Source: an uncultured virus (IMG/VR IMGVR_UViG_3300020047_004730)
Lineage: Duplodnaviria; Heunggongvirae; Uroviricota; Caudoviricetes; Crassvirales
Length of the DNA: 64,000 nucleotides
Strand: one strand, 5' to 3'
IMG/VR virus record: IMGVR_UViG_3300020047_004730
A model generated the notes under the pieces. It had not been told where the DNA came from and searched no databases. It saw only the letters and a program-made list of their open reading frames with translations. This document shows positions 5,583-31,198 of this stretch, piece by piece (position 1 is the stretch's first letter; the number at the start of each line of letters is the position of its first letter). The translations under genes and the position numbers were made by a program.

Positions 5583-5857
5583 TTCTTCTTGGCTTTATCT
5601 TCAGCAAAAGATACTGGTATCTGCTCCATCTTCTTAGCAATCTCTGCTTGATCAGCACTTGGCTGCTCTGCTTCAATCTTATCAAGTATTACGAGCGCAT
5701 CCTCAAATGCAAGTCTCTTAGCCGCTGCTGCCGTTCGCATCTTATCAGCCGTCAGGTCTCCATCCATTCCAGTAATGATTGGGTCCTTTAGAACTTTAAT
5801 CAGCTCGTTCACCGCAATCATTCCAGCGTCTAATATTTCCGTTCGCTTACTAGACAT
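5579..5857 (-). CDS. Possible terminase small subunit
   Basis: Small helical protein immediately upstream of, and overlapping, terL. Confidence 0.45.
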   Translation of the reverse strand: MSSKRTEILDAGMIAVNELIKVLKDPIITGMDGDLTADKMRTAAAAKRLAFEDALVILDKIEAEQPSADQAEIAKKMEQIPVSFAEDKAKKK

Positions 5858-6408
5858 ATCATACTTGTTTTCATTCTGTATAACTTCTTCCCGTCAATAT
5901 TGAACTCATACTCGCTATCTGGCATGAATGAAATAATCGTTCCGGGTTTAATATCTGACTGCTCAATGTTTGGGTATACCATCACCCCAAACAGTGACAA
6001 CTCGTCACAGTTATTTATAAGTCCCTCTGTATTGTTTGTGTCCTTGATAGGCTCAACAAAGCAGTACGGTGCAATTGCGCTCCACTTTCCACCCGGACAT
6101 CTGTATGCGTACACCTCTGTTGGGTATATCATGTACTTATCATCAAACAAGTGAGATGCAGAGGATTTCTCCCTGCCCTTCATGTCGTGATAAAGTCTGA
6201 ACGTGTTGTGGTGCACAATTATTTCGTCACCTTTTTTGATAGGTCCGTTATAGATAATCGGAATATTTTCGACTACAGCGATACGATTTGTCACCAAGTG
6301 ATCCTCCTGAGAGGATGACGTGACGAATTCTTTACCACCAAGTTCTTTGGTGTTGTCGTACCGCTTTCCGTCTTTTGGCTCTACGATAAAGCAGTGTGGA
6401 GATCTCAT
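5830..6408 (-). CDS. GroES-like co-chaperonin (192 aa, apparently two GroES-like units)
   Basis: FIVEP...IKKGDEIIV and FVEP...IKPGTII...EFNIDGKKLYRM resemble the Cpn10 pattern. Confidence 0.55.
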   Translation of the reverse strand: MRSPHCFIVEPKDGKRYDNTKELGGKEFVTSSSQEDHLVTNRIAVVENIPIIYNGPIKKGDEIIVHHNTFRLYHDMKGREKSSASHLFDDKYMIYPTEVYAYRCPGGKWSAIAPYCFVEPIKDTNNTEGLINNCDELSLFGVMVYPNIEQSDIKPGTIISFMPDSEYEFNIDGKKLYRMKTSMICLVSERKY

Positions 6409-9955: not shown

Positions 9956-12900
9956 TTAATTTATAAATACTGATGTTGATGGTCTAACATCTGTTGGAAG
10001 TAATGCCCAGTTAGTTGCATTTGTTAGTACTCCTTTGTATGAATATATTCTTCTACCTAATGATGAATCTATATCTGTTGCATTAACAAATCCTACATTA
10101 ATTGTTGCTCCTTGATCTACTGTAAAAATAGCCTGAGAGGATGTAATACTTGATGACAAAGTTATTGGAAAAGAAAGAGTTCCTTGAGATGTAAAACCAG
10201 CTCTAACTCTGTAAGTTTTTGTAGCAACTAATACTGGATTTCTTGCAACAGTACCTGATGAATTTAAATTAAGGTAGTAAACATCAAATGTTCCATCTGT
10301 ACCACTAAAATTTATTTGTGAATTGTCTATTGTTAAAGCATTTGAAACAACAAGTTGATTGTTTAATATAAGCGATGTAACATTTGTAGGAGTTGTTACA
10401 TTATACCAAACAATACTTCCATCATTCATTGTTGTTCCTGATTGTCTAATATTTAATGTTGATCCAGTTGTTATTACAGTTCCAGCTGTATAAGTAAATA
10501 TTCCTCCTCCAAGATTAGCACTTATGAATGTTAAAGTACCAGCTGTATTTATTGTGAAAGTATTTGAAAAATAACTTGTTGATAGTGATGTCCAAGTACC
10601 TGTTCCAGCATAAATAAAGGTTGTTGTTCCACCATAACTTCCACCACTTGATTGTAAAATGTTACCGTTAACTGTAATACTAAATCCACTCAAAATAGCA
10701 CCCGAAACAGGAGAAATTGTTAAGTCTTGACATACCCAAGCAAAGGGCAAAGTTACTGTACCACCACCACCTAATTCTAAATGTGTGAAGTTTATTGTAT
10801 TTCCTCCTAATATAAAGTTTGTAGTTGGCTGACCATTAATAGTTCCAAAAGTAATTGCGTTAATATTACTTGTTAATGTAGTTGTACTATTAACAAGTAA
10901 TTTATTCCAAGTTTTACCTGAAACATTTAAGGTTGTATTACCTGAAGTTCCTACTGCTACAGTAGCTCCTGTGTCTACAATAGTTCCAGCTGTATATGTA
11001 AATGTTCCAAGTGATTTATAAACTATTCCCGTAATAGTAAGTGTGCCAGCTGTGTTAATTGTTAAATTATTAGCAATATATGAATTAATTGCGCCATTGG
11101 TAGACCAAGTACCTGTGCCTCCATAAATAATATTTGTAGTACCTGAAAGATTATTATTTATAGTAAGATTTTCAGTTATTGTTAATGTATTTGCATTTAT
11201 ATTTGAATTTGAACCTGTTATTGTTAAAGTTTTAAATGTTTGATTTGCTGGCATTGTAAAAGTACCAGATGTACCCATTGTAAGATTAGCATTTGTACTT
11301 ACTAAACTATTTCCTCCTAATGCAAAACTTGTTACGCCATTACCTAAAATTAATGTTCCTGTTAATGTAAGATTACTCCCTAATGTTATTACTGATCCTG
11401 AGGTTATATTTATATTATTCCAAGTTATTCCGTTAGTATTTAAAGTTGTTGCAGTTGCAATTAACAAAGTGTTTCCTGTAGTTATAACAGTTCCTGCAGT
11501 TCTAGTTAGGGTACCTGTATTATAATAAATGTTTGTACTAAGTGTTATCGTTCCAGCAGTATTAATTGTAAGATTATTTCTTAACGAACTTGTACTTACA
11601 GAACTCCAAGTACCTGTACCATTTAATACAATTGTACTAGTACCACTAGCAATATTTCCTGCTAAATCTACAGTTAGATTTCCTCCTACAAAAATAGAAC
11701 TACTATTTAGCGTTACTGCACTATTACTACTTATTAATGATAAATTATTTGCTACTGTTAAATTACTAGTACTTGTAATTGTAGTTGCTCCACTTGTACC
11801 AAAAGATGTAACATTATTCCATATTATTCCATTGGTATTAAGAGTTGTTGTTGTAACGTTTGCTCCACTTCCAATAAATAAAGTACTTCCTGTAGTGACT
11901 ACAGTTCCTGCTGTGTATGTTAATATTCCTTGATAATAATAAATACTACCTGGAATAGTTATTGTACCAGCTGTATTTATAGTTAGATTATTGAGAACAG
12001 GTCCTAATGAAGTAGAAGACCAAGTACCTGTGCCAGTTAATATTAGATTAGTTGTTCCATTTAATCCTTGATTTATATTATTATTACCATTAACTGTAAG
12101 ATTTCCAGTTATTGATAGTTGATTCCCATTCATTTGCCCAGAAAATCCAGAAGTTAAATTTATACACGTTAAATTTGAAGGAACAGTAAATATAGCACTA
12201 GTTCCAAGTGAAATATTCGCATTTGTTGTTATTAAAGTATTGCCTCCTAACGTAAAACTTAATGATGCATTTGTTGTTATAATTAATGTTCCTGTTAATG
12301 TAAGATTACTCCCTAATGTTATTACAACACCACTTGCAGTTATATTTATATTATTCCAAGTTATTCCGTTAGTATTTAAAGTCGTAGATGCTCCAATATT
12401 TAATGTTGATCCGGTTGTTACAACTGTTCCTGCAGTTCTAGTTAATGTTCCTGTGTTATAATAAACATTGGTTCCTAACGTTAAAGTTCCTGCGGTATTA
12501 ATAGTAACATTATTTCTAATAACACCAGTTGAACTATGAGACCATGTTCCAGTTCCGTTAAATCTAAAAGTTGTTGTTCCCGTGTAAATCGCTGTTGTTG
12601 CATGAGTTAAATTTGAATTTATCAATAAGGTGTTACCATTTATTACAGCACCAGTCGTGCTATTTAATGATACATTCCCACTTATCGTCCAGTTATCTGC
12701 TAGTGTAAAAGTTTGTGACGTTCCAGCAAAAGTAAATAATCTTGACCAAGTAACACCTCCTGATGTTAATGTTGCCGTTGCTCCTGCCACTATGCCATTA
12801 GACCCTGCTTGAGTATATAGTCCCGATCCTAAATTTATAGGACCATTTATATTAAGCGGATTATTAAACGTAATTGTATTAATATAACTAGTAAAATTTA

Positions 12901-13054
12901 TACCAACACAAGTTGAGGCAACGTTAACTACAAGTGGACCTGATGTAGCAGTAAATGCTACTGTATCTAATGTAGTACTTGGAACTACTCCTCCAACCCA
13001 TGTTCCAGTAGAATTCCAGTTACCACCAGCATTTGATACAGTTCTTACAGCCAT
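9956..13054 (-). CDS. Tail fibre/spike-like beta-solenoid repeat protein
   Basis: T/N/G-rich; five roughly 160-aa repeats starting GTGTW...NNLTINTAGT. Confidence 0.75.
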   Translation of the reverse strand: MAVRTVSNAGGNWNSTGTWVGGVVPSTTLDTVAFTATSGPLVVNVASTCVGINFTSYINTITFNNPLNINGPINLGSGLYTQAGSNGIVAGATATLTSGGVTWSRLFTFAGTSQTFTLADNWTISGNVSLNSTTGAVINGNTLLINSNLTHATTAIYTGTTTFRFNGTGTWSHSSTGVIRNNVTINTAGTLTLGTNVYYNTGTLTRTAGTVVTTGSTLNIGASTTLNTNGITWNNINITASGVVITLGSNLTLTGTLIITTNASLSFTLGGNTLITTNANISLGTSAIFTVPSNLTCINLTSGFSGQMNGNQLSITGNLTVNGNNNINQGLNGTTNLILTGTGTWSSTSLGPVLNNLTINTAGTITIPGSIYYYQGILTYTAGTVVTTGSTLFIGSGANVTTTTLNTNGIIWNNVTSFGTSGATTITSTSNLTVANNLSLISSNSAVTLNSSSIFVGGNLTVDLAGNIASGTSTIVLNGTGTWSSVSTSSLRNNLTINTAGTITLSTNIYYNTGTLTRTAGTVITTGNTLLIATATTLNTNGITWNNINITSGSVITLGSNLTLTGTLILGNGVTSFALGGNSLVSTNANLTMGTSGTFTMPANQTFKTLTITGSNSNINANTLTITENLTINNNLSGTTNIIYGGTGTWSTNGAINSYIANNLTINTAGTLTITGIVYKSLGTFTYTAGTIVDTGATVAVGTSGNTTLNVSGKTWNKLLVNSTTTLTSNINAITFGTINGQPTTNFILGGNTINFTHLELGGGGTVTLPFAWVCQDLTISPVSGAILSGFSITVNGNILQSSGGSYGGTTTFIYAGTGTWTSLSTSYFSNTFTINTAGTLTFISANLGGGIFTYTAGTVITTGSTLNIRQSGTTMNDGSIVWYNVTTPTNVTSLILNNQLVVSNALTIDNSQINFSGTDGTFDVYYLNLNSSGTVARNPVLVATKTYRVRAGFTSQGTLSFPITLSSSITSSQAIFTVDQGATINVGFVNATDIDSSLGRRIYSYKGVLTNATNWALLPTDVRPSTSVFIN

Positions 13055-15161: not shown

Positions 15162-15352
15162 TGTATGTGCCTATAGTTTCGATAGTACCAGATAACTCCC
15201 CCTATAAAACCTCCATATGATGCAATGAATGCACCAACAATTGGATATGGCTCATTTAAGTATCCATTAATAATCCAAAATGGAAAAAGGACACACATCG
15301 TAACACTAAATAGTATTTGCAAAATGTGTATAGTATGCCAAAAGTATTTCAT
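15158..15352 (-). CDS. Small membrane protein (2 TM)
   Basis: ORF track; overlaps both neighbours by 4 bp. Confidence 0.6.
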   Translation of the reverse strand: MKYFWHTIHILQILFSVTMCVLFPFWIINGYLNEPYPIVGAFIASYGGFIGGVIWYYRNYRHIQ

Positions 15353-15609
15353 ATTACAGCTGCTACGTTGTTCTCATTTACTATCGTGTACGTCTTACCA
15401 TTAAAGACCACCTCATGACCGTATACCTTGTCATAATAAATCTCGTCACCAAGCTTTATTCCCTCCACTAGATTACCCGGCTGCTCTACAACCTTCGCTC
15501 GCTGGTAACGGATCTCCTCCATGTCCGTCTCCGTAAGCTGAAGACCCGACTTCATTGTCAGGGTCTCGCTTACTTTCTCACACAGTATAAACTTATTATA
15601 GGCTCTCAT
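15349..15609 (-). CDS. groES: Co-chaperonin GroES
   Basis: KSGLQL mobile loop, IKLGDEIYYDK, GKTYTIVNENNV; coupled to groEL. Confidence 0.85.
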   Translation of the reverse strand: MRAYNKFILCEKVSETLTMKSGLQLTETDMEEIRYQRAKVVEQPGNLVEGIKLGDEIYYDKVYGHEVVFNGKTYTIVNENNVAAVI

Positions 15610-17182
15610 TCTCTCTCATATTTACAATTGCTACTTGGCTTGACATGATCGTAGTGGCTACCGATACTGCATTCTTCAGCGCGCTCTTAGTTACCATCGT
15701 CGGATCAATCACTCCCATCTTCTCCATCATCCCGTACTTCTCGTTCTTCACGTCAAACCCGTAACCGAAGTCACCGACCTCCATTATGTTTGAACGTATC
15801 TCACTTGGATGAAGCCCAGCATTTAGCATGATGCGATTGAATGGAGCCGCTAGTGCAGTATAAAAAATGCTCTCAGCAACTAACTTATTCTCATCCGTCT
15901 GTACTGGTCCTCTCTGAGTGTAATACATCAGAGCTGAACCTCCACCCGGAAGTATTCCATCCTGAATGGCTGCACTCACAGCTCGTACCGCATCGTCAAC
16001 ACGGTCGTACAGCTCCTTCGTCTCAATCTCTGACGGTGCGCCAACATGAACAATTCCAACTCCTCCCTCAATGTTTGCTATCCTTGACTCGGTGTCCTTC
16101 TTCTCGGCTAACGTCTTGTCGGACGCCATCTTGCTTTTAAGCTCCTCTAAGCGATTGTTTAGTGGCTCCTGATCTATTTCATCTGAACGGTAGATAACTG
16201 TCCTGTCTGCCGATATAATTACCTTCTTCGCTGTACCTAGTCCGTCCAACGTGATGTTGTGAAGTCCGTCCCCAGTCTCCTCCGAGTAGTACTTCGCCCC
16301 AAGAACAACCTCTAAGTCCTTCATCATCTCCTTCTGACGGTATCCAAAGTTTGGTGGGATCACGTTGACAGCCTTGATTACCCCCTTCATCTTGTTAGCC
16401 GCTAGTGTCGCACGCGCCTGATCAGACATGTTGCCAATTATTAGCAACGACCTGTTCTCACGGATGACTGGACCAAGGATAGACTCAAGGTGTCCACCCA
16501 GCTTCTCGATCGTCATGTCTGTAAGTAGAATCAAAGGATTGTCTAGCTCCGCTACCTCACGCTCTTGGTCCGTGATGAAGTACTCGTTCGCATATCCACG
16601 GTCGAACTTCATCCCGTCAATAATCTCCGTAGTAACGAACGGCTGCTTTCCAATCTCGGCAGTTACAATCTTAACCTTCCCAAACAAATCGGAGATCATC
16701 TTTCCTAGCTCCGGGTCGTTATTGGCTGAAATAGTTGCCACCTGATCTAACTTCTTCTTCGTTACCTTCTTGGACTTCTTGTCTAGAAACTTAATAGCAT
16801 CGTCCGTCAGCGTGTGGATGTGACGAACTACCTGAGTGACGTTATGCTTGTCCGTAAGGTGTGCATCCGCTGCATCTAGCATTCCTTGAAGTATCACAAG
16901 TGCAGTAGTGGTTCCGTCGCCAGCTGCCGTAGCCGTCTGTACTGATGCCTCCCTTGCTATCGTGATGCCCAACTGCTCGGTCGCATCAAACACATTCACC
17001 GCCTTGGCTACCGACACACCGTCCTTGGTGATCGTCTTGCCTCCTACGTGGTGCTCGGACTCCATAATTACTGGACGACCTCCCGGACCCATCGTAGAAG
17101 CAACCGCCTCCGTTAATATTCTGATTCCTTTCTTTAGTTTCTCCTGTCCAGAATCACCTAAGTGTACTTTTTTGACTATCAT
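15596..17182 (-). CDS. groEL: Chaperonin GroEL
   Basis: TMGPGGR, ITKDGVSVAK, AGDGTTTA, GILPGGG, GVIDP motifs. Confidence 0.96.
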   Translation of the reverse strand: MIVKKVHLGDSGQEKLKKGIRILTEAVASTMGPGGRPVIMESEHHVGGKTITKDGVSVAKAVNVFDATEQLGITIAREASVQTATAAGDGTTTALVILQGMLDAADAHLTDKHNVTQVVRHIHTLTDDAIKFLDKKSKKVTKKKLDQVATISANNDPELGKMISDLFGKVKIVTAEIGKQPFVTTEIIDGMKFDRGYANEYFITDQEREVAELDNPLILLTDMTIEKLGGHLESILGPVIRENRSLLIIGNMSDQARATLAANKMKGVIKAVNVIPPNFGYRQKEMMKDLEVVLGAKYYSEETGDGLHNITLDGLGTAKKVIISADRTVIYRSDEIDQEPLNNRLEELKSKMASDKTLAEKKDTESRIANIEGGVGIVHVGAPSEIETKELYDRVDDAVRAVSAAIQDGILPGGGSALMYYTQRGPVQTDENKLVAESIFYTALAAPFNRIMLNAGLHPSEIRSNIMEVGDFGYGFDVKNEKYGMMEKMGVIDPTMVTKSALKNAVSVATTIMSSQVAIVNMRENESL

Positions 17183-18360: not shown

Positions 18361-19059
18361 TTATTTCTTTCTACCACTAATAGATAGATACCTATTATTT
18401 CCAGACCCAACCTTCTCAGACCACTTTAAAGCCTTCTTGGTATCCTTTATGTCTTTCTTTACATCGTATCCAGTACTCTTCTTAACGTCTTTTCTTACTG
18501 ACTTAAGGTCTTTAACTTGGTCTTGAAGTTCTTTTGCTCTGTTCATTTTATTCATTCCAGCCTGAGATCCAGTTCCAGATGCGCTTGTAGCTCTGTTGTA
18601 TGCACCAGCCATCTTCTCTTCCTTCTTGAATACCTGCTTGCCAACAATATTCTTTATAGCCGTTCCAATATTTCCAGTTCTACCACCACCCTTAGTTAGC
18701 TTCTTAGTCTTAGAAGCTGGCTCGAACTTAGGCTTCTCAACAGCTTCCTTCTTTGGAGTGGAACTCTTCTGAATTGATTTATCTATAGGCTTAGATACTA
18801 ACTTCTTTGTTGGAAGCTTTGCTGTAATCTCTTCTCTCTTTGGTTTTTCTGGCACCTTCTTGTCATCTAAGCTGTATGCCATTTTACGGTCAGGTACTCC
18901 TTTTCTATAATTATCCAAGTCTCCTTGAGATATCGTGATATCCTTGTCTTTTGGTATGTTATACTCCTTTCTGAATCTTGCCTCTTCTTCAGGTGTCATA
19001 ACTCCAAAATCACTCTTTTTTTTAGGATTTATAGGATCTTTCTTTGTTTGTCTTGCCAT
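18361..19059 (-). CDS. Lys-rich basic protein
   Basis: ORF track; promoter element at 19088-19095. Confidence 0.7.
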   Translation of the reverse strand: MARQTKKDPINPKKKSDFGVMTPEEEARFRKEYNIPKDKDITISQGDLDNYRKGVPDRKMAYSLDDKKVPEKPKREEITAKLPTKKLVSKPIDKSIQKSSTPKKEAVEKPKFEPASKTKKLTKGGGRTGNIGTAIKNIVGKQVFKKEEKMAGAYNRATSASGTGSQAGMNKMNRAKELQDQVKDLKSVRKDVKKSTGYDVKKDIKDTKKALKWSEKVGSGNNRYLSISGRKK

Positions 19060-19101
19060 GATCTATTTTTTAATGTATATACAGGTGCAAAGATACTGAA
19101 A

Positions 19102-19257
19102 TTATCCCTTCATGTGACGCTTACGTACCTTCGGCTCGTACTCAAGACCTGTACTTCTCTCAATTTTCTTCTCTCTTCTCTTCTCCTTTCTCTTCTCCCT
19201 GTCATCTTTTGAAAATGTAGGAGCCAGTGGGTAATCTCTATTGGTGCTTTTTTGCAT
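19102..19257 (-). CDS. Small basic protein (51 aa)
   Basis: Read manually: MQKSTNRDYPLAPTFSKDDREKRKEKRREKK...; promoter element at 19281-19288. Confidence 0.55.
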   Translation of the reverse strand: MQKSTNRDYPLAPTFSKDDREKRKEKRREKKIERSTGLEYEPKVRKRHMKG

Positions 19258-19330
19258 GACCTAATGTTTTAATTATATCGCAAAGATAACGAATTATTGC
19301 ATATCGCGATTAGCGATCACCATATCGCAG

Positions 19331-19640
19331 ACTGACGATAAATGACGATTACTGACGTAAAAGTATCAATTACTGACGTAAAACTCGAAAAACTGACGAT
19401 ACGGATTTTCAAGATGCCCAGTTTTACTGAGTTTCTGACGATACTGACGAAGTGGTCCCCTATTATATTCTAATAATATATATACTACTTACTGTATTTT
19501 TTATTTAAAGAAATCTTAATAGGAGAGTAATCGTCAGTACCGTCAGGAATCCAGCAAAATCAAGGGTTACAGAAGGAGCGCTTCGTCAGTAATTCGTCAG
19601 TATCGTCAGTTTTACGTCATTTTTTAACATTTGACGTCAG
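19331..19640. repeat. Iteron array / putative replication origin 1
   Basis: 7 TGACG copies (19331-19449) face 7 CGTCA copies (19532-19640) across an AT-rich core. Confidence 0.7.
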
Positions 19641-19930
19641 AAAGAATTTTTGAGTTATTGCACGTCTGGAGTGATTGGGTAATATATACATTTCACGCGC
19701 GCCCGTGCGAAAGGAAAGCGTTCGAAAACGGCATGGGGGGGTGCTGAATTTCAGACTTTCGTCCTAACTTTTTACCTTTTTGTCTGCATCCCTTGTGCCT
19801 AGTAGCTATGCGCTGATGCATGCATGTATACGCTGCCTATGTTATGCGTGTGTTGATACTTGATGTATTACTTTAAGTCAGCCAATCTAACTTACTGCAA
19901 TCCATATCGTTACGCATCAATTCATATTCT

Positions 19931-19958
19931 ATTTAACATAATGTATATTATAAGACAG
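19931..19958 (-). other. dif: dif-like XerC/XerD recombination site
   Basis: Minus strand CTGTCTTATAA-TATACA-TTATGTTAAAT; canonical XerD arm and 11-6-11 layout. Confidence 0.8.
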
Positions 19959-20254
19959 TCATCGCTAATGCGCTGATGCACAAGCGTTTATGCATTCATT
20001 ACTTCTTTGAGCCGGTATGCATGCCTTTACTTGGTGCTGTAAGTGATGCTGTCTTGCCTTGATTCAATGCATTAATTTGTCGCTGCCTGACCTGATACTT
20101 TTGCATGCGTTCGTACATGCTGACTGTTTGAATAGCCCCACCAATATCCCTTCCTCCCATTAATTAAATCCTGCACATACGCACGCGCACGCGTAAGGGG
20201 ATGTAATTCATTCATTATCAATGACTTAAGTAATGATGTCAAACTGTTTTGATT

Positions 20255-20309
20255 ATTCGTCGAAGAAATACTATCATTCGTCGAAGAAATAAGGTCATTC
20301 GTCGAATAA
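20255..20309 (+). repeat. Three 21-bp-period direct repeats
   Basis: ATTCGTCGAA at 20255, 20276, 20297. Confidence 0.8.
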
Positions 20310-20333
20310 TTCGAAAATAATTGATAAAAGTCA

Positions 20334-20363
20334 TTGTCAATCAAATCAAATGCACTAGATTTG
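20334..20363 (+). promoter_or_regulatory. Putative major early promoter (Bacteroidota -33/-7)
   Basis: TTG at 20334, 19-bp spacer, TAGATTTG at 20356-20363; heads the plus-strand arm. Confidence 0.6.
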
Positions 20364-20540
20364 TTTCAAGCAAGTCGGGAAAACGTTCTCAGTTTTACTT
20401 AGCTTAAATGACAGCCTTTCAGACGTTACAGTGACGAACTAGTATGCTACATGAGGTGAGAGAAGTACGAAGAGTTAAGGCATGGTACAAGCACAGTCTT
20501 AATGAGTAGTGAGTAACTCAGTCAATCAATATCTAATATC

Positions 20541-20552
20541 GTTCTTTGACAT
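20541..20552 (+). promoter_or_regulatory. boxA-like antitermination element
   Basis: GTTCTTTGACAT resembles rrn boxA (E. coli TGCTCTTTAACA). Confidence 0.5.
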
Positions 20553-20828
20553 ACGAAATTATACAATAGAATACTTCTCGGTATTAAGGAAAGTGAGTAA
20601 TGAAATTACAGTAATTATTTAGACCCTGTGTGATACGTTCTAAAGCGCATCAGATAATCATTTATGAGCCGACAGAGATTTGAGTATAGTGGATTTGGGC
20701 ATTTATTCTAGTCGGGAATAAAAGAATGCTGCAATTATAGACGTCAATTGGAATGGAAATTCGCGAATTGAAATCATTTAAGACATCCGATGAGGGAACG
20801 GGGCTGAAAAGTCTAAGCCAATTCCCTC

Positions 20829-20877
20829 GCTTTTCAGCATGTGTATGCTGACTGATGATTCCTAAAGGATGAAAAGC
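20829..20877 (+). ncRNA. Type III hammerhead ribozyme (core variant)
   Basis: GCU-U-U / UCAGCAU-gugu-AUGCUGA / CUGAUGA / U-UCC-uaaa-GGA-U / GAAA-AGC. Confidence 0.65.
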
Positions 20878-20983
20878 AAACGTAAATATTTAAAACCTAG
20901 AAATTATGGGCATATTAGTTTGTTGGCTGCTAGCAGCAGCTGTAATTTACTTGAAATATTATTTATTAATTAAACTATAAGTT

Positions 20984-21136
20984 ATGGAAACGATATCATC
21001 ATTAAATGAAGACAGATACATTGTAGTTGATGAGTTAGGCTATAATGTAGATGGCGAGCATTATTCATTGCAAGATGCTAAAGCGAGACTATCTGAAATG
21101 GCTGACTATATTACTATCAAAAAATTAGAGTCATGA
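20984..21136 (+). CDS. Small early protein (50 aa)
   Basis: Read manually: METISSLNEDRYIVVDELGY... Confidence 0.55.
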   Translation: METISSLNEDRYIVVDELGYNVDGEHYSLQDAKARLSEMADYITIKKLES

Positions 21137-21279
21137 CAGCAGTTATCACGTTCAAAAATTCACGCAAGGAGTACTACCAAGTTGTGAAGGAATTCAATGA
21201 CATCCGTCACTTGGAGAATTACATCGCCAAGGTAGACGGAAAGCAAGGCGTAAAGTATATAAACTACGAGATAAAGTAA
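21133..21279 (+). CDS. Small early protein (48 aa)
   Basis: Read manually: MTAVITFKNSRKEYYQVV...; ATGA overlap with previous gene. Confidence 0.55.
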   Translation: MTAVITFKNSRKEYYQVVKEFNDIRHLENYIAKVDGKQGVKYINYEIK

Positions 21280-21302
21280 TCAACAATTTAAATTAAGTAA
21301 TC

Positions 21303-21713
21303 ATGAAAAAGTACATTATAGTAGACACCTTCAATGGCGAAGGCTACAGCAACAGCAAGGCAGAAGTAAAGGAATTCGAGTCATTAGATGAGGCTAAGGT
21401 ATATGCATACAATTTGGCTAACGAATTTTGTGGTGACAATGGTAGCTTAGTCCTAACGGAACGTCAAGTTATTTATGGAATCAATCCAATAGATGAGGAC
21501 GAGTATGACAGCTATGGTGCTGTACATTTCGAAGAATTGCCAGACGGAATTGTATCAGTTACAATCAATCCGGACGTGAACGAGTATGCTCTACATGACG
21601 CAGAGTCTGACGCAGAAGTTGTAGAGTACATCAAGTCAGAATCAGAAGACTTTGAGCAATTGGAAGACTGTCATCACCTAGATGACGAGGTAGTTATTTA
21701 TCAAAAACTTTAA
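21303..21713 (+). CDS. Acidic early protein
   Basis: ORF track; very D/E-rich. Confidence 0.75.
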   Translation: MKKYIIVDTFNGEGYSNSKAEVKEFESLDEAKVYAYNLANEFCGDNGSLVLTERQVIYGINPIDEDEYDSYGAVHFEELPDGIVSVTINPDVNEYALHDAESDAEVVEYIKSESEDFEQLEDCHHLDDEVVIYQKL

Positions 21714-30389: not shown

Positions 30390-31198
30390 TAGAGAACTTA
30401 ATTAAATTCAGAGCAAGCGGTGCAGCACCATTGTTCTCCGGAGATGACGGACTGACTGAAGCACAGCAGAAAAAGTATGACGAACTATCTGAGCGTTCAC
30501 TAGCATCAATCACAGATCCTAAGAAGAAACTTACTGACAACATGAAGGCTGAGTTTGACAAGCTTCACTTGATCAGAACAAACTTAGAGAATGGAGTGGT
30601 TGAGTTAAGCACTGGAGGACGAACGTTCGTTGAGTCTCTAGTAGATCAGGTAGTGTACAAGTACAAGAAGACGTTCGGAAGTAAGGAGACTGAGAAAGGT
30701 AACACTGTTGAGGAGGATGCGATTGCATTCTTAAATGAGTTCTTCATGACTGACCTATTGAAGTCAGAGTCATCACTATCTCATGGATTCTTTCAGGGAC
30801 ATCCTGACCTTGAGGATGAAAACAAGAAGATGATTATTGACATCAAGTGTTCATGGACCAAGGATACGTTTCCAAAACTTCCAGAGCAGATTAGCAACAG
30901 CACGTATGAGTGGCAGTTAAAACTGTACTGCTACATGAAGTCCAAGATGACTGGAGATAATTGGAGCAAGGCTAGGCTGTGCTACGTACTTATGTCTACG
31001 CCTGAAGGATTGGTTCCTGACTGGGAGGGAGATGACCTACACTATGTCGATGACTTAGACCCTGCACTTCGAATTACATACATTGAGTTCGAGTTAACTG
31101 ATGCTGATATCGCCCACATTGAGAGACGTGAGAAGGCAGCAGTGAAATACGCTAAAGAGTATTACAATAAATTAATAACCAAAAATCAAATCAAATGA
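30386..31198 (+). CDS. YqaJ/lambda-exonuclease-like PD-(D/E)xK nuclease
   Basis: FRAS, KGNTVE, GHPD, DIKCSW, YEWQL..YM. Confidence 0.8.
   Translation: MIENLIKFRASGAAPLFSGDDGLTEAQQKKYDELSERSLASITDPKKKLTDNMKAEFDKLHLIRTNLENGVVELSTGGRTFVESLVDQVVYKYKKTFGSKETEKGNTVEEDAIAFLNEFFMTDLLKSESSLSHGFFQGHPDLEDENKKMIIDIKCSWTKDTFPKLPEQISNSTYEWQLKLYCYMKSKMTGDNWSKARLCYVLMSTPEGLVPDWEGDDLHYVDDLDPALRITYIEFELTDADIAHIERREKAAVKYAKEYYNKLITKNQIK

What the first reader, a model, noticed from the sequence alone, without database searches (positions are those of the whole stretch)
19931..19958. dif (XerC/XerD) site in a tailed phage with no recognisable integrase
Minus strand reads CTGTCTTATAA TATACA TTATGTTAAAT. The right arm is identical to the E. 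coli XerD arm TTATGTTAAAT, with a 6-bp spacer and a divergent XerC arm, about 300 bp from an origin-like element. Known IMEX elements (CTX, TLC, gonococcal island) hijack XerCD, and plasmids use Xer sites to resolve dimers. Inference: this phage either integrates at host dif or resolves circular multimers during theta or plasmid-like replication (carrier state).
Basis: partly seen in the sequence, partly recalled or inferred. Interest (0 to 1): 0.8.

Follow-up and report, generated by a model that had tools for sequence, protein, structure and literature searches.

The report
Host dif site in crAss-like phage
A roughly 66-kb freshwater phage related to the crAss group, with no recombinase gene of its own, carries a conserved copy of its probable host group's chromosome dimer-resolution (dif) site, so it most likely borrows the host's XerC/XerD enzymes to recombine its own DNA.

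Summary
The 28-mer at 19931-19958 (minus strand) is there as written. Its XerD arm equals E. coli's, but that 11-mer alone is not significant.

Evidence that the site is real:
- The whole site fits the dif consensus of Bacteroidota: 1 hit in the window, 0 of 100 shuffles.
- Its inner 22 bases occur exactly in 39 of 185,579 species genomes. By record title, 32 of these are Bacteroidota. One genome matches 27 of 28.
- The match was single-copy in every genome checked.
- The centre TATACA is rare in Flavobacteriales (2 of 132 matches). It is common in one family (8 of 23), labelled Schleiferiaceae/Cryomorphaceae, which is the likely host group.

Conservation in relatives:
- Three near-identical relatives keep the site 28/28.
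- A diverged relative (G408) keeps it at the same place, with arms 21/22 identical, centre 2/6 and flanks 35%.
- Nine more distant relatives lack it.

No integrase was found, and no integrated copy or phage-host junction.

The site is very probably a working Xer site. Whether it resolves or closes phage circles, or integrates at the host dif, stays open. This scan has noted dif-type sites in lytic tailed phages before, on other DNA.

The parts
19931..19958 (-). 28-bp dif-type site: XerC-type arm CTGTCTTATAA (19958-19948), 6-bp centre TATACA (19947-19942), XerD-type arm TTATGTTAAAT (19941-19931)
   Evidence: Sequence. Consensus test (1 hit, 0 of 100 shuffles). The exact 22-mer is in 39 species genomes. 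The site is 28/28 in G001, G002/L006 and L154. In G408 the arms are 21/22 and the centre 2/6.
19258..20983 (.). Non-coding region of about 1.7 kb between the leftward (virion, chaperonin) and rightward (early, replication) gene blocks. It is the GC-skew minimum of the window and holds all the elements below.
   Evidence: ORF list and skew. The only sizeable ORF near the site (19999-20160, minus strand, 53 aa) loses its starts and gains a stop in L006.
19330..19645 (.). Iteron-like CTGACG repeats, direct at 19330-19451 and inverted at 19526-19645, around an AT-rich stretch.
   Evidence: families D1, D5, D9-D11; inverted pairs I1-I9. Function is inferred only.
19669..19781 (-). Conserved block on the XerD-arm side (AAAAAGTTAGGACGAAAGTCTGAAA ... 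CACCCCCCC ... TATATATTACCC). It is alignable even in G408, and a similar block follows the site in L223.
   Evidence: Function unknown; it could be a promoter or an accessory sequence.
20252..20310 (.). TTCGTCGAA repeats (two 21-nt direct units and an inverted copy) on the XerC-arm side, conserved in G408.
   Evidence: (D4, I19).

Best explanation
The 28-mer is a genuine copy of the host-type chromosome dimer-resolution site (dif) and is kept by selection. The phage has no recombinase of its own. Host XerC binds the CTGTCTTATAA arm and host XerD binds the TTATGTTAAAT arm, and they exchange strands across the 6-bp centre. I commit to recombination between copies of the site on the phage's own DNA. 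This turns dimers or multimers of the circular replicating genome, or a terminally repeated linear genome, into unit circles, as dif does for chromosomes and dif-bearing plasmids and as Cre-lox does for phage P1. The position beside an iteron-type origin-like element fits a plasmid-like maintenance module and a non-lytic carrier state. Shown: the sequence, its fit to the host-clade dif, its conservation pattern, the absence of a phage recombinase, and the presence of XerD in candidate hosts. Inferred: binding, catalysis, the circular episomal state and the benefit to the phage. The confidence given is for this specific mechanism. That the site is a working Xer substrate of some kind I put at about 0.8.
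For: (1) The site fits the Bacteroidota dif consensus: 1 hit in the window and 0 of 100 shuffles (reference sites from PMC3025954 supplementary file 2). (2) The exact inner 22-mer is in 39 of 185,579 species genomes. By record title 32 are Bacteroidota and 14 of those are Flavobacteriales, Schleiferiaceae or Cryomorphaceae. One genome (L033) matches 27/28. (3) Those genomic sites behave like dif. They are single copy at up to 3 mismatches in 5 of 5 genomes with 0 control hits. Of the 130 Flavobacteriales genomes (of 401 searched) that match TATAA-N6-TTATGTTAAAT, 128 have one copy, against 11 reversed-pattern control hits. All 23 matching genomes of 121 in the family have one copy. (4) All 5 candidate host genomes encode a XerD above the TIGR02225 cut-off, plus a second Xer-like paralogue. 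(5) Conservation: the site is 28/28 in G001, G002/L006 and L154. In G408 it is syntenic and in the same orientation, with arms 21/22, centre 2/6 and flanks 247/698 (35%). The chance that at least 4 of 5 changes fall in the 6 centre positions is 0.0034. L223, a relative whose GroEL is 44% identical, also has the site about 930 nt upstream of GroEL. (6) No recombinase was found. (7) Every copy seen is a free phage contig. Contigs bridging the site with phage on both sides occur in independent runs (X3 record 21, X17 record 10). (8) Sites with two canonical copies per genome, as stable integration of a perfect-dif element would give, are rare: 2 of 130, 0 of 23 and 0 of 5 genomes. (9) Distant relatives sit as separate phage-sized contigs in bacterial assemblies: G077 C65 at 59.7 kb, and G511 C16 and C23.
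Against: No experiment or read-level evidence shows Xer action on this DNA. Concatemers are the normal packaging substrate of tailed phages, so monomerisation is not obviously useful in a lytic cycle. No partition, repressor or plasmid-replication gene was recognised. Recombination between the phage's own copies does not need the host's centre. Yet the phage has a rare host-lineage centre (TATACA), and unrelated phage contigs share the same centre variants. That fits exchange with the host dif better. Nine more distant relatives that cover the region or are at least 90% complete lack the site, so it is not essential to this phage type: G407, G414, G419, G420, G422, G423, G428, G430, G435. The site lies at a GC-skew minimum rather than a terminus-like maximum. 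The physical genome ends are unknown.
Confidence: 0.4

Rival explanations
1. IMEX-like lysogeny. The site is an attP. Host XerC/XerD recombine it with the chromosomal dif, so the 66-kb phage integrates, perhaps reversibly, without an integrase. The known parallels are CTX/VGJ/TLC vibriophages, the microviruses of Bacteroidetes and the PhiCjT23-like prophages of Flavobacterium.
For: The centre and both arms equal a rare, lineage-specific host dif variant. TATACA is 2 of 132 matches in the order sample but 8 of 23 in one family. Identity to a genome site reaches 27/28. The same two full sites recur in unrelated viral contigs that share nothing else: TATACA in about 5 further flank contexts, and TTAGTA, the centre of G408, in at least 5 further contexts. 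Repeated exchange with a host dif would produce exactly that. The phage has no recombinase. Xer-dependent integration of small viruses is reported for this phylum: passages read in PMC3091885 and PMC9719478.
Against: No integrated relative was found. Terminase relatives occur in 2 of 401 Flavobacteriales genomes and in 1 of 157 genomes of the candidate family, all on phage-only contigs without a dif-like site. The one metagenome contig found with the XerD arm plus phage flank has phage on both sides. No hybrid junction could be shown in the laid contigs. No repressor or lysogeny gene was recognised. Two perfect dif sites flanking a prophage should be excised by FtsK-activated XerCD (established for E. 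coli, recalled). Genomes with two canonical sites are rare.
Confidence: 0.25
2. Ring closure at the genome ends. The site lies in the phage's terminal repeat, and XerC/XerD join the two end copies to circularise the injected linear DNA. This is the role ascribed to Cre-lox for P1 cyclisation, and the role earlier notes of this scan proposed for rV5-like and CR3-like lytic phages.
For: The site sits in the largest non-coding stretch, at the junction of the two transcription blocks. The G001 contig ends about 740-930 nt away. Earlier notes e1-309443 and e1-5864169 report dif copies inside end repeats of lytic phages (unchecked here). This is a sub-case of the best explanation, counted apart.
Against: Nothing here locates the physical ends. 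The end repeat of G002 as classed by IMG/VR maps by my estimate inside structural genes near window 53-55 kb, which looks like an assembly overlap of a circular map. Contig ends at the site are equally explained by assembly graphs branching at a sequence shared between genomes.
Confidence: 0.12
3. Not a recombination site in the phage. It could be a chance or hitch-hiked AT-rich palindrome, a promoter element, or a docking or decoy site that binds Xer proteins without strand exchange.
For: The 11-mer arm alone is at chance level. The minus strand contains a TATAAT hexamer. The scan covers very many windows, so rare look-alikes will turn up. Nine relatives do without the site.
Against: No shuffle reaches the consensus match (0 of 100). 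The arms are 21/22 conserved against 35% identity in the flanks of G408, with changes concentrated in the centre. The phylum of the matching dif variant agrees with the phylum of the hosts of the phage's nearest cultured relatives. The site lacks the TTTG motifs of Bacteroidota promoters (consensus recalled, not tested).
Confidence: 0.12

Closest known systems
Chromosomal dif of Bacteroidota, as predicted by Kono et al. 2011 (PMC3025954), for example Cytophaga hutchinsonii, Robiginitalea biformata and Flavobacteriaceae bacterium 3519-10
   Same: Same 11+6+11 architecture. The XerD arm is identical, and the XerC arm fits TTGTnnTATAA at 8 of 9 specified positions. Identity is 24/28 to the C. hutchinsonii and R. 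biformata sites (my count). The inner 22 bases equal single-copy sites in 39 species genomes.
   Different: It sits on a 66-kb phage genome, at a GC-skew minimum beside an origin-like repeat cluster, and not at a chromosome terminus.
IMEX elements: CTX, VGJ and TLC phages of Vibrio; microvirus proviruses of Bacteroidales (PMC3091885); PhiCjT23-like ssDNA prophages of Flavobacterium (PMC9719478); dif-type double jelly-roll vibriophages (PMC12715192)
   Same: A virus without a recombinase that carries a dif look-alike of its host, in two cases within the same phylum.
   Different: Those are small non-tailed viruses (about 4-10 kb for the ssDNA ones) found integrated and flanked by dif-like sites. 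This is a 66-kb tailed crAss-like phage. Every copy seen is free, no junction was found, and the site is a full canonical dif rather than a degenerate attP.
Plasmid multimer-resolution sites cer (ColE1) and psi (pSC101), and dif-bearing plasmids (recalled knowledge)
   Same: A Xer core site next to a replication origin on an extrachromosomal circle, using host XerC/XerD only.
   Different: cer and psi need about 180-200 bp of accessory sequence bound by PepA with ArgR or ArcA, and cer has an 8-bp centre. Here the centre is 6 bp and of chromosomal type. No accessory proteins or sequences can be assigned, and a plasmid state is not shown.
Cre-lox of phage P1 (recalled knowledge)
   Same: A tailed phage using site-specific recombination on its own DNA for cyclisation and dimer resolution of a plasmid prophage. 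This is the closest functional analogue of the best explanation.
   Different: P1 encodes its own recombinase and its own site. This phage encodes none and copies the host's site.

Membership tests
dif-type XerC/XerD recombination site | Two 11-bp arms in imperfect inverted repeat around a 6-bp centre | tested here: met
   CTGTCTTATAA / TATACA / TTATGTTAAAT. The inner TTATAA...TTATGT halves are inverted.
dif-type XerC/XerD recombination site | Sequence fits the dif of the host clade | tested here: met
   (0 of 100 shuffles). (exact 22-mer in 39 genomes, 32 of them Bacteroidota by title; best match 27/28). (the centre is typical of one Flavobacteriales family).
dif-type XerC/XerD recombination site | Arms conserved while the centre is free to change between lineages | tested here: met
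   G408 has arms 21/22, centre 2/6 and flanks 35%. Host genomes show the same pattern (at least 8 centre types on constant arms).
dif-type XerC/XerD recombination site | Bound and recombined by XerC and XerD | not testable with these tools
   Only the presence of XerD and a paralogue in 5 of 5 candidate host genomes was shown.
dif-type XerC/XerD recombination site | Chromosomal dif: at the replication terminus, where GC skew switches, with converging FtsK-orienting motifs | tested here: not met
   the site is at the cumulative-skew minimum, where genes diverge. It is therefore not a chromosomal dif in context. FtsK-orienting motifs were not analysed.
IMEX (integrative mobile element exploiting Xer) | No recombinase of its own, with a dif-like attP | tested here: met
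IMEX (integrative mobile element exploiting Xer) | Found integrated at the host dif, flanked by two dif-like sites | tested here: inconclusive
   Not found in 401 order-level and 157 family-level genomes searched with the terminase, in one metagenome scan, or in contigs of 4 runs. Raw reads were not available and the true host is unknown.
Plasmid Xer resolution site (cer/psi type) | Accessory sequences on the XerC side bound by PepA with ArgR or ArcA; FtsK-independent | not testable with these tools
   About 40 nt next to the XerC arm are conserved only among the three close relatives and not in G408. No motif could be assigned.
Plasmid Xer resolution site (cer/psi type) | Carried by a stably replicating circular episome | not tested
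   The genome assembles as a circle. Whether it persists as a plasmid is unknown.

The most novel reading that the evidence does not exclude
Carrying an exact copy of the host's dif is a recurrent, undescribed strategy of tailed phages of Bacteroidota, crAss-like ones included. Through host XerC/XerD they recombine with the host chromosome and with each other. That would give integrase-free, reversible lysogeny or a plasmid-like carrier state, and would make the site a hot spot for module exchange. It would offer a concrete mechanism for the long-puzzling persistence of crAss-like phages without lysogeny genes.
Probability: 0.3. Interest if true: 0.85.

Novelty: new variant of a known kind. 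Interest (0 to 1): 0.66.

Why it matters
Exploitation of the host Xer system by viruses is established for small non-tailed phages and for plasmids. In my three literature searches and in the papers I read passages of, I found no description of a dif-type site in a crAss-like or other tailed phage. This was not an exhaustive search. Here the site is conserved in a clade of widespread freshwater and estuarine phages: 20 runs from 11 studies hold 22-37% of the region's sampled words. The site also points to a host family, because its centre sequence is lineage-specific. That makes dif mimicry a possible host-prediction marker for uncultured phages. The same full sites recur in unrelated large viral contigs, so this may be a general way for phages to do without an integrase or resolvase. 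It gives a simple, testable handle (delete the 28-mer; assay XerCD) on how phages without lysogeny genes persist in their hosts.

Tried and rejected
- Near and distant DNA searches of GenBank phages with the region found nothing.
- A 61-nt query around the site gave only marginal hits at E of 0.003 to 10. These included known Xer-type small phages and a 21/22 match in Rheinheimera Barba phages at E=2, which is at chance level. The Barba paper has no occurrence of Xer, integrase or lysogeny words.
- Rfam found nothing above threshold in 18500-21500, and there are no tRNAs.
- A coding explanation for the region was rejected. The 53-aa ORF at 19999-20160 is not conserved in L006.
- Integration was looked for in four ways without a positive. 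This is not evidence against integration, because the host is unknown and only contigs were available, not raw reads.
- In one search many short contigs stop at 19925-19927 or 19956-19958. Other, more abundant contigs (for example X3 record 22, depth 104 against 19 for the phage) share only 19925-19958, with unrelated flanks on both sides. I take this as the same core in other replicons of the sample. It does not show junctions or genome ends.
- IMG/VR 'provirus' records with the commonest Flavobacteriales dif core near one end and no PF00589 looked like integrase-less dif prophages. G530, the one of the five that I annotated, turned out to be a Mu-like transposable prophage with its own DDE transposase, so I dropped these records as support.
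- A search for partition, repressor or replication-initiator genes near the site found none.
- Earlier-findings look-ups by place and by sequence returned nothing.

Full report
WHAT IS THERE

It lies in a non-coding stretch of about 1.7 kb (19258-20983). From this stretch genes run leftward on the minus strand and rightward on the plus strand. It is also the cumulative GC-skew minimum of the window.

The stretch holds three other elements:
- CTGACG repeats, direct at 19330-19451 and inverted at 19526-19645, around an AT-rich core. They end 286 nt from the site.
- A conserved block at 19669-19781.
- TTCGTCGAA repeats at 20252-20310.

The only sizeable ORF near the site (19999-20160, minus strand) loses its start codons and gains a stop in a 90%-identical relative, so the region is not coding. 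Rfam gives nothing above threshold.

THE GENOME

The window is most of a phage genome of about 66 kb.
- The virus record G001 (54,979 bp) is the same phage. It maps to window 20695-1 and 64000-31922, so the map is circular with about 2 kb outside the window.
- Pfam and PHROG scans identify a portal, a large terminase, crAss-type muzzle proteins (PF25731, PF25729), a 3,479-aa protein, a BT4734-type primase, helicases, exonucleases, an SSB and a phage GroEL/GroES pair.
- No recombinase, repressor or partition family was found in the 82 ORFs scanned.
- PF00589 is absent in six-frame searches at E<=1 of G001 and of the complete relative G002 (63,828 bp), while all 14 control genomes respond.
- By the primase, the nearest GenBank phages are an uncultured freshwater phage (42% identity) and Flavobacterium podophages. 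31 of 35 matching records are phages of Flavobacteriia or other Bacteroidota.

IS THE SITE MORE THAN CHANCE?

The XerD arm is identical to that of E. coli dif (PMC3025954, supplementary file 2). As an 11-mer it is not significant: at up to 1 mismatch there are 5 matches against 4.5 expected.

The right reference is the Bacteroidota dif. The same table lists, for non-Bacteroidales Bacteroidetes, sites of the form TTGTnnTATAA TTTATA TTATGTTAAAT lying within a few degrees of the GC-skew shift. By my count the phage site is 24/28 identical to those of Cytophaga hutchinsonii and Robiginitalea biformata. Searching that consensus at up to 3 mismatches gives one hit in the window, this site, and none in 100 shuffles.

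THE SAME SITE IN BACTERIAL GENOMES

- The inner 22 bases (TATAA, centre and XerD arm) occur exactly in 39 of 185,579 species genomes, once per locus.
- By record title, 32 are Bacteroidota. Of these, 14 are Flavobacteriales, Schleiferiaceae or Cryomorphaceae. The other 7 are scattered.
- The outer XerC arm there is mostly TTGAAT or TTGTTA. One Bacteroidota genome (L033) has TTGTCT, which is 27/28 to the phage.
- In five of these genomes the 22-mer is single copy even at 3 mismatches, with no hit for the reversed control.
- All five encode a XerD above the TIGR02225 cut-off, plus a second Xer-like paralogue.

In an even sample of 401 Flavobacteriales genomes, TATAA-N6-TTATGTTAAAT matches 130 genomes, 128 of them once, against 11 reversed-control hits. 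By my count of the listing the centres are:

| Centre | Matches (of 132) |
|---|---|
| TTTATA | 61 |
| TTAATA | 45 |
| TATATA | 7 |
| TTATTA | 5 |
| TTTACA | 3 |
| TATACA | 2 |
| other | 9 |

In the family of the two TATACA genomes, 23 of 121 genomes match, all once, with 0 control hits. There TATACA is 8 of 23. The arms are therefore constant across the order while the centre marks lineages, and the phage carries the centre of one family. That family is the best host guess. Weak extra support: one of its 157 genomes holds two phage contigs distantly related to this phage.

CONSERVATION IN RELATIVES

- Three close relatives at about 90-92% identity keep the site 28/28: G001, G002/L006 and the metagenome contig L154. 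At that distance this says little.
- The informative case is G408 (50.6 kb; terminase 81% and GroEL 57% identical). Its site is at the same place and in the same orientation, between the TTCGACGAA repeats and the conserved block. It reads CTGTCCTATAA TTAGTA TTATGTTAAAT.
- Against the window, the arms are 21/22 identical, the centre 2/6 and the aligned flanks 247/698, or 35%. The chance that at least 4 of the 5 changes fall in the centre is 0.0034.
- L223, a fragment whose GroEL is 44% identical, has the TTAGTA form of the site about 930 nt upstream of GroEL, followed by a similar C-rich/TATATA block.
- Among the 32 related records of about 20 kb or more that I scanned, only G001, G002 and G408 have a hit at 1 mismatch. 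One 3-mismatch hit is matched by 2 control hits. The other 48 shorter contigs were not scanned.
- Eight relatives at least 90% complete (terminase 63-66%) lack the site. So does G407, which covers the region.
- G409 and G410 do not reach the region.
- Four relatives binned with bacterial genomes also lack it.

The site therefore belongs to a sub-clade and is dispensable for the phage type as a whole.

LOOKING FOR INTEGRATION

- Terminase relatives were found in 2 of 401 Flavobacteriales genomes and in 1 of 157 genomes of the candidate family. All are on phage-only contigs.
- A metagenome scan with the XerD arm plus phage flank returned one contig, with phage on both sides.
- Twenty runs from 11 studies (freshwater, lake, estuary and runoff, plus one marine RNA library) hold 22-37% of the region's sampled words.
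- In the contigs of four runs, phage contigs bridge the site. Many short contigs stop at its edges. Other, more abundant contigs share only 19925-19958, with unrelated flanks on both sides. This shows the same core in other replicons of those samples. It does not show junctions. Only contigs were available, not raw reads.

THE SAME SITES IN OTHER VIRAL CONTIGS

- The TATACA 22-mer is in 11 further IMG/VR contigs, in about five flank contexts. Four of these carry tailed-phage packaging genes within about 1 kb: Terminase_3 in L048 and L050, Terminase_6 in L055, and a Mu-type portal in L049.
- The TTAGTA 22-mer of G408 is in 12 further contigs of 5-70 kb, in at least five flank contexts. They share only about 29-31 nt with G408.
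- Four of the five large ones tested lack PF00589, but these four are only 27-84% complete. The fifth is 91% complete and has a hit.
- The commonest Flavobacteriales core is in 50 viral contigs. The five 'provirus' records tested there share the dif position near one end. G530, the one I annotated, is a Mu-like prophage with its own transposase and a host dif near one end, so these records do not count as Xer users.

HOW IT MOST LIKELY WORKS

Shown:
- The site has the full dif architecture.
- It fits the host clade.
- It has the conservation signature of a protein-bound, centre-free recombination site.
- The phage has no recombinase.
- Candidate hosts have XerC/D-type genes.

Inferred: host XerC and XerD act on it.

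I commit to recombination between the phage's own copies, meaning dimer or multimer resolution, or ring closure, of a circular replicon. My reasons:
- Every copy seen is free.
- The site is a perfect chromosomal-type dif beside an origin-like repeat cluster.
- No lysogeny genes are seen.
- Genomes with two canonical sites are rare.

The main rival is IMEX-like integration. Its best argument is that the phage centre equals a rare host-lineage centre and that unrelated phages share the same two full sites. Exchange with the host dif would explain this.

A third reading came from earlier notes of this scan on rV5-like and CR3-like lytic phages (not checked here). It places the site in a terminal repeat used for cyclisation. 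The physical ends are unknown here.

COMPARISON WITH WHAT IS KNOWN

In sequence the site is a member of the dif-type Xer sites of Bacteroidota. In context it is not a chromosomal dif. It shares with IMEX elements the absence of a recombinase and the host-like site. The defining integrated state was looked for and not found, so I do not file it as an IMEX. Functionally it resembles plasmid Xer sites and P1 Cre-lox.

Papers read:
- PMC3025954: passages and supplementary table 2.
- PMC3091885, PMC9719478, PMC12715192, PMC6715854 and PMC7077304: passages found by term search only.

Searches returned no paper on a Xer site in a crAss-like or other tailed phage. I saw the other listed titles only as search listings.

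VERDICT

This is a real, selected host-dif copy in an integrase-less crAss-like phage clade. It is a new variant of a known kind. The mechanism stays open between recombination of the phage's own DNA and integration at the host dif.

Noticed in passing
L005:1-800 (relative; homology to window 19059-17860 begins at L005 742): In this relative, whose DNA is 98% identical over the 232-aa gene region, the DNA upstream of that gene is not the window's non-coding region. It holds an ORF with HUH Rep-type motifs as I read them from the translation (no family scan was run), preceded by TTGTGACAA repeats. This suggests a swapped replication module. The contig ends there.
   Followed up: partly
window 20826-20880 (+): Weak match to the type III hammerhead ribozyme (RF00008, 25.9 bits against a gathering score of 48.5, E=0.016). 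It lies in a stretch that varies by indels among relatives (joints at 20406-20888).
   Followed up: no
window 15596-17182 (-), 15349-15609 (-), 5830-6408 (-): The phage encodes a GroEL-type chaperonin (PF00118, E 1e-46), a Cpn10 (PF00166) and a second GroES-like protein (phrog_13932).
   Followed up: no
L048, L049, L050, L055 (IMG/VR contigs with the TATACA core); L216-L228 (TTAGTA core): Unrelated viral contigs carry the same full dif-type sites. Several of the TATACA-core contigs look like tailed phages, with the site 50-800 nt from the large terminase or portal genes. Three contigs end within 6 nt of the site.
   Followed up: partly
L155:1490-1525 (Rheinheimera phage Barba1A, MK719701.1 around 30436-30457): A cultured 80-kb myovirus has ATAACCTATAA GATACA TTATGTTAAAT in a 1.25-kb gene-free stretch with TACTGTAT repeats. 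Its genomics paper never mentions lysogeny or integrase, and a later paper calls it lytic. The BLAST hit has E=2, so it may be chance. The phage paper does not mention Xer.
   Followed up: partly
G530 (L213-L215), with G531-G534: G530 is a Mu-like provirus with a host-type dif core about 580 nt from one end of the record. Its head-gene block is inverted relative to its tail-gene block around the repressor/transposase region. G531-G534 have the core at the same distance from one end but were not annotated. G530 and G533 have a second site with an exact XerD arm, in inverted orientation, near the other end.
   Followed up: partly
window 11279-11581 and 12209-12517: A repeat of about 310 nt at 79% identity lies inside the 1,032-aa ORF (9956-13054, minus strand), which has no family match.
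   Followed up: no
window 19669-19781 (-): A non-coding block (AAAAAGTTAGGACGAAAGTCTGAAA ... CACCCCCCC ... TATATATTACCC) stays recognisable in G408, and a similar C-rich/TATATA block follows the site in L223, although the DNA between it and the site is unalignable. It always lies on the XerD-arm side.
   Followed up: partly
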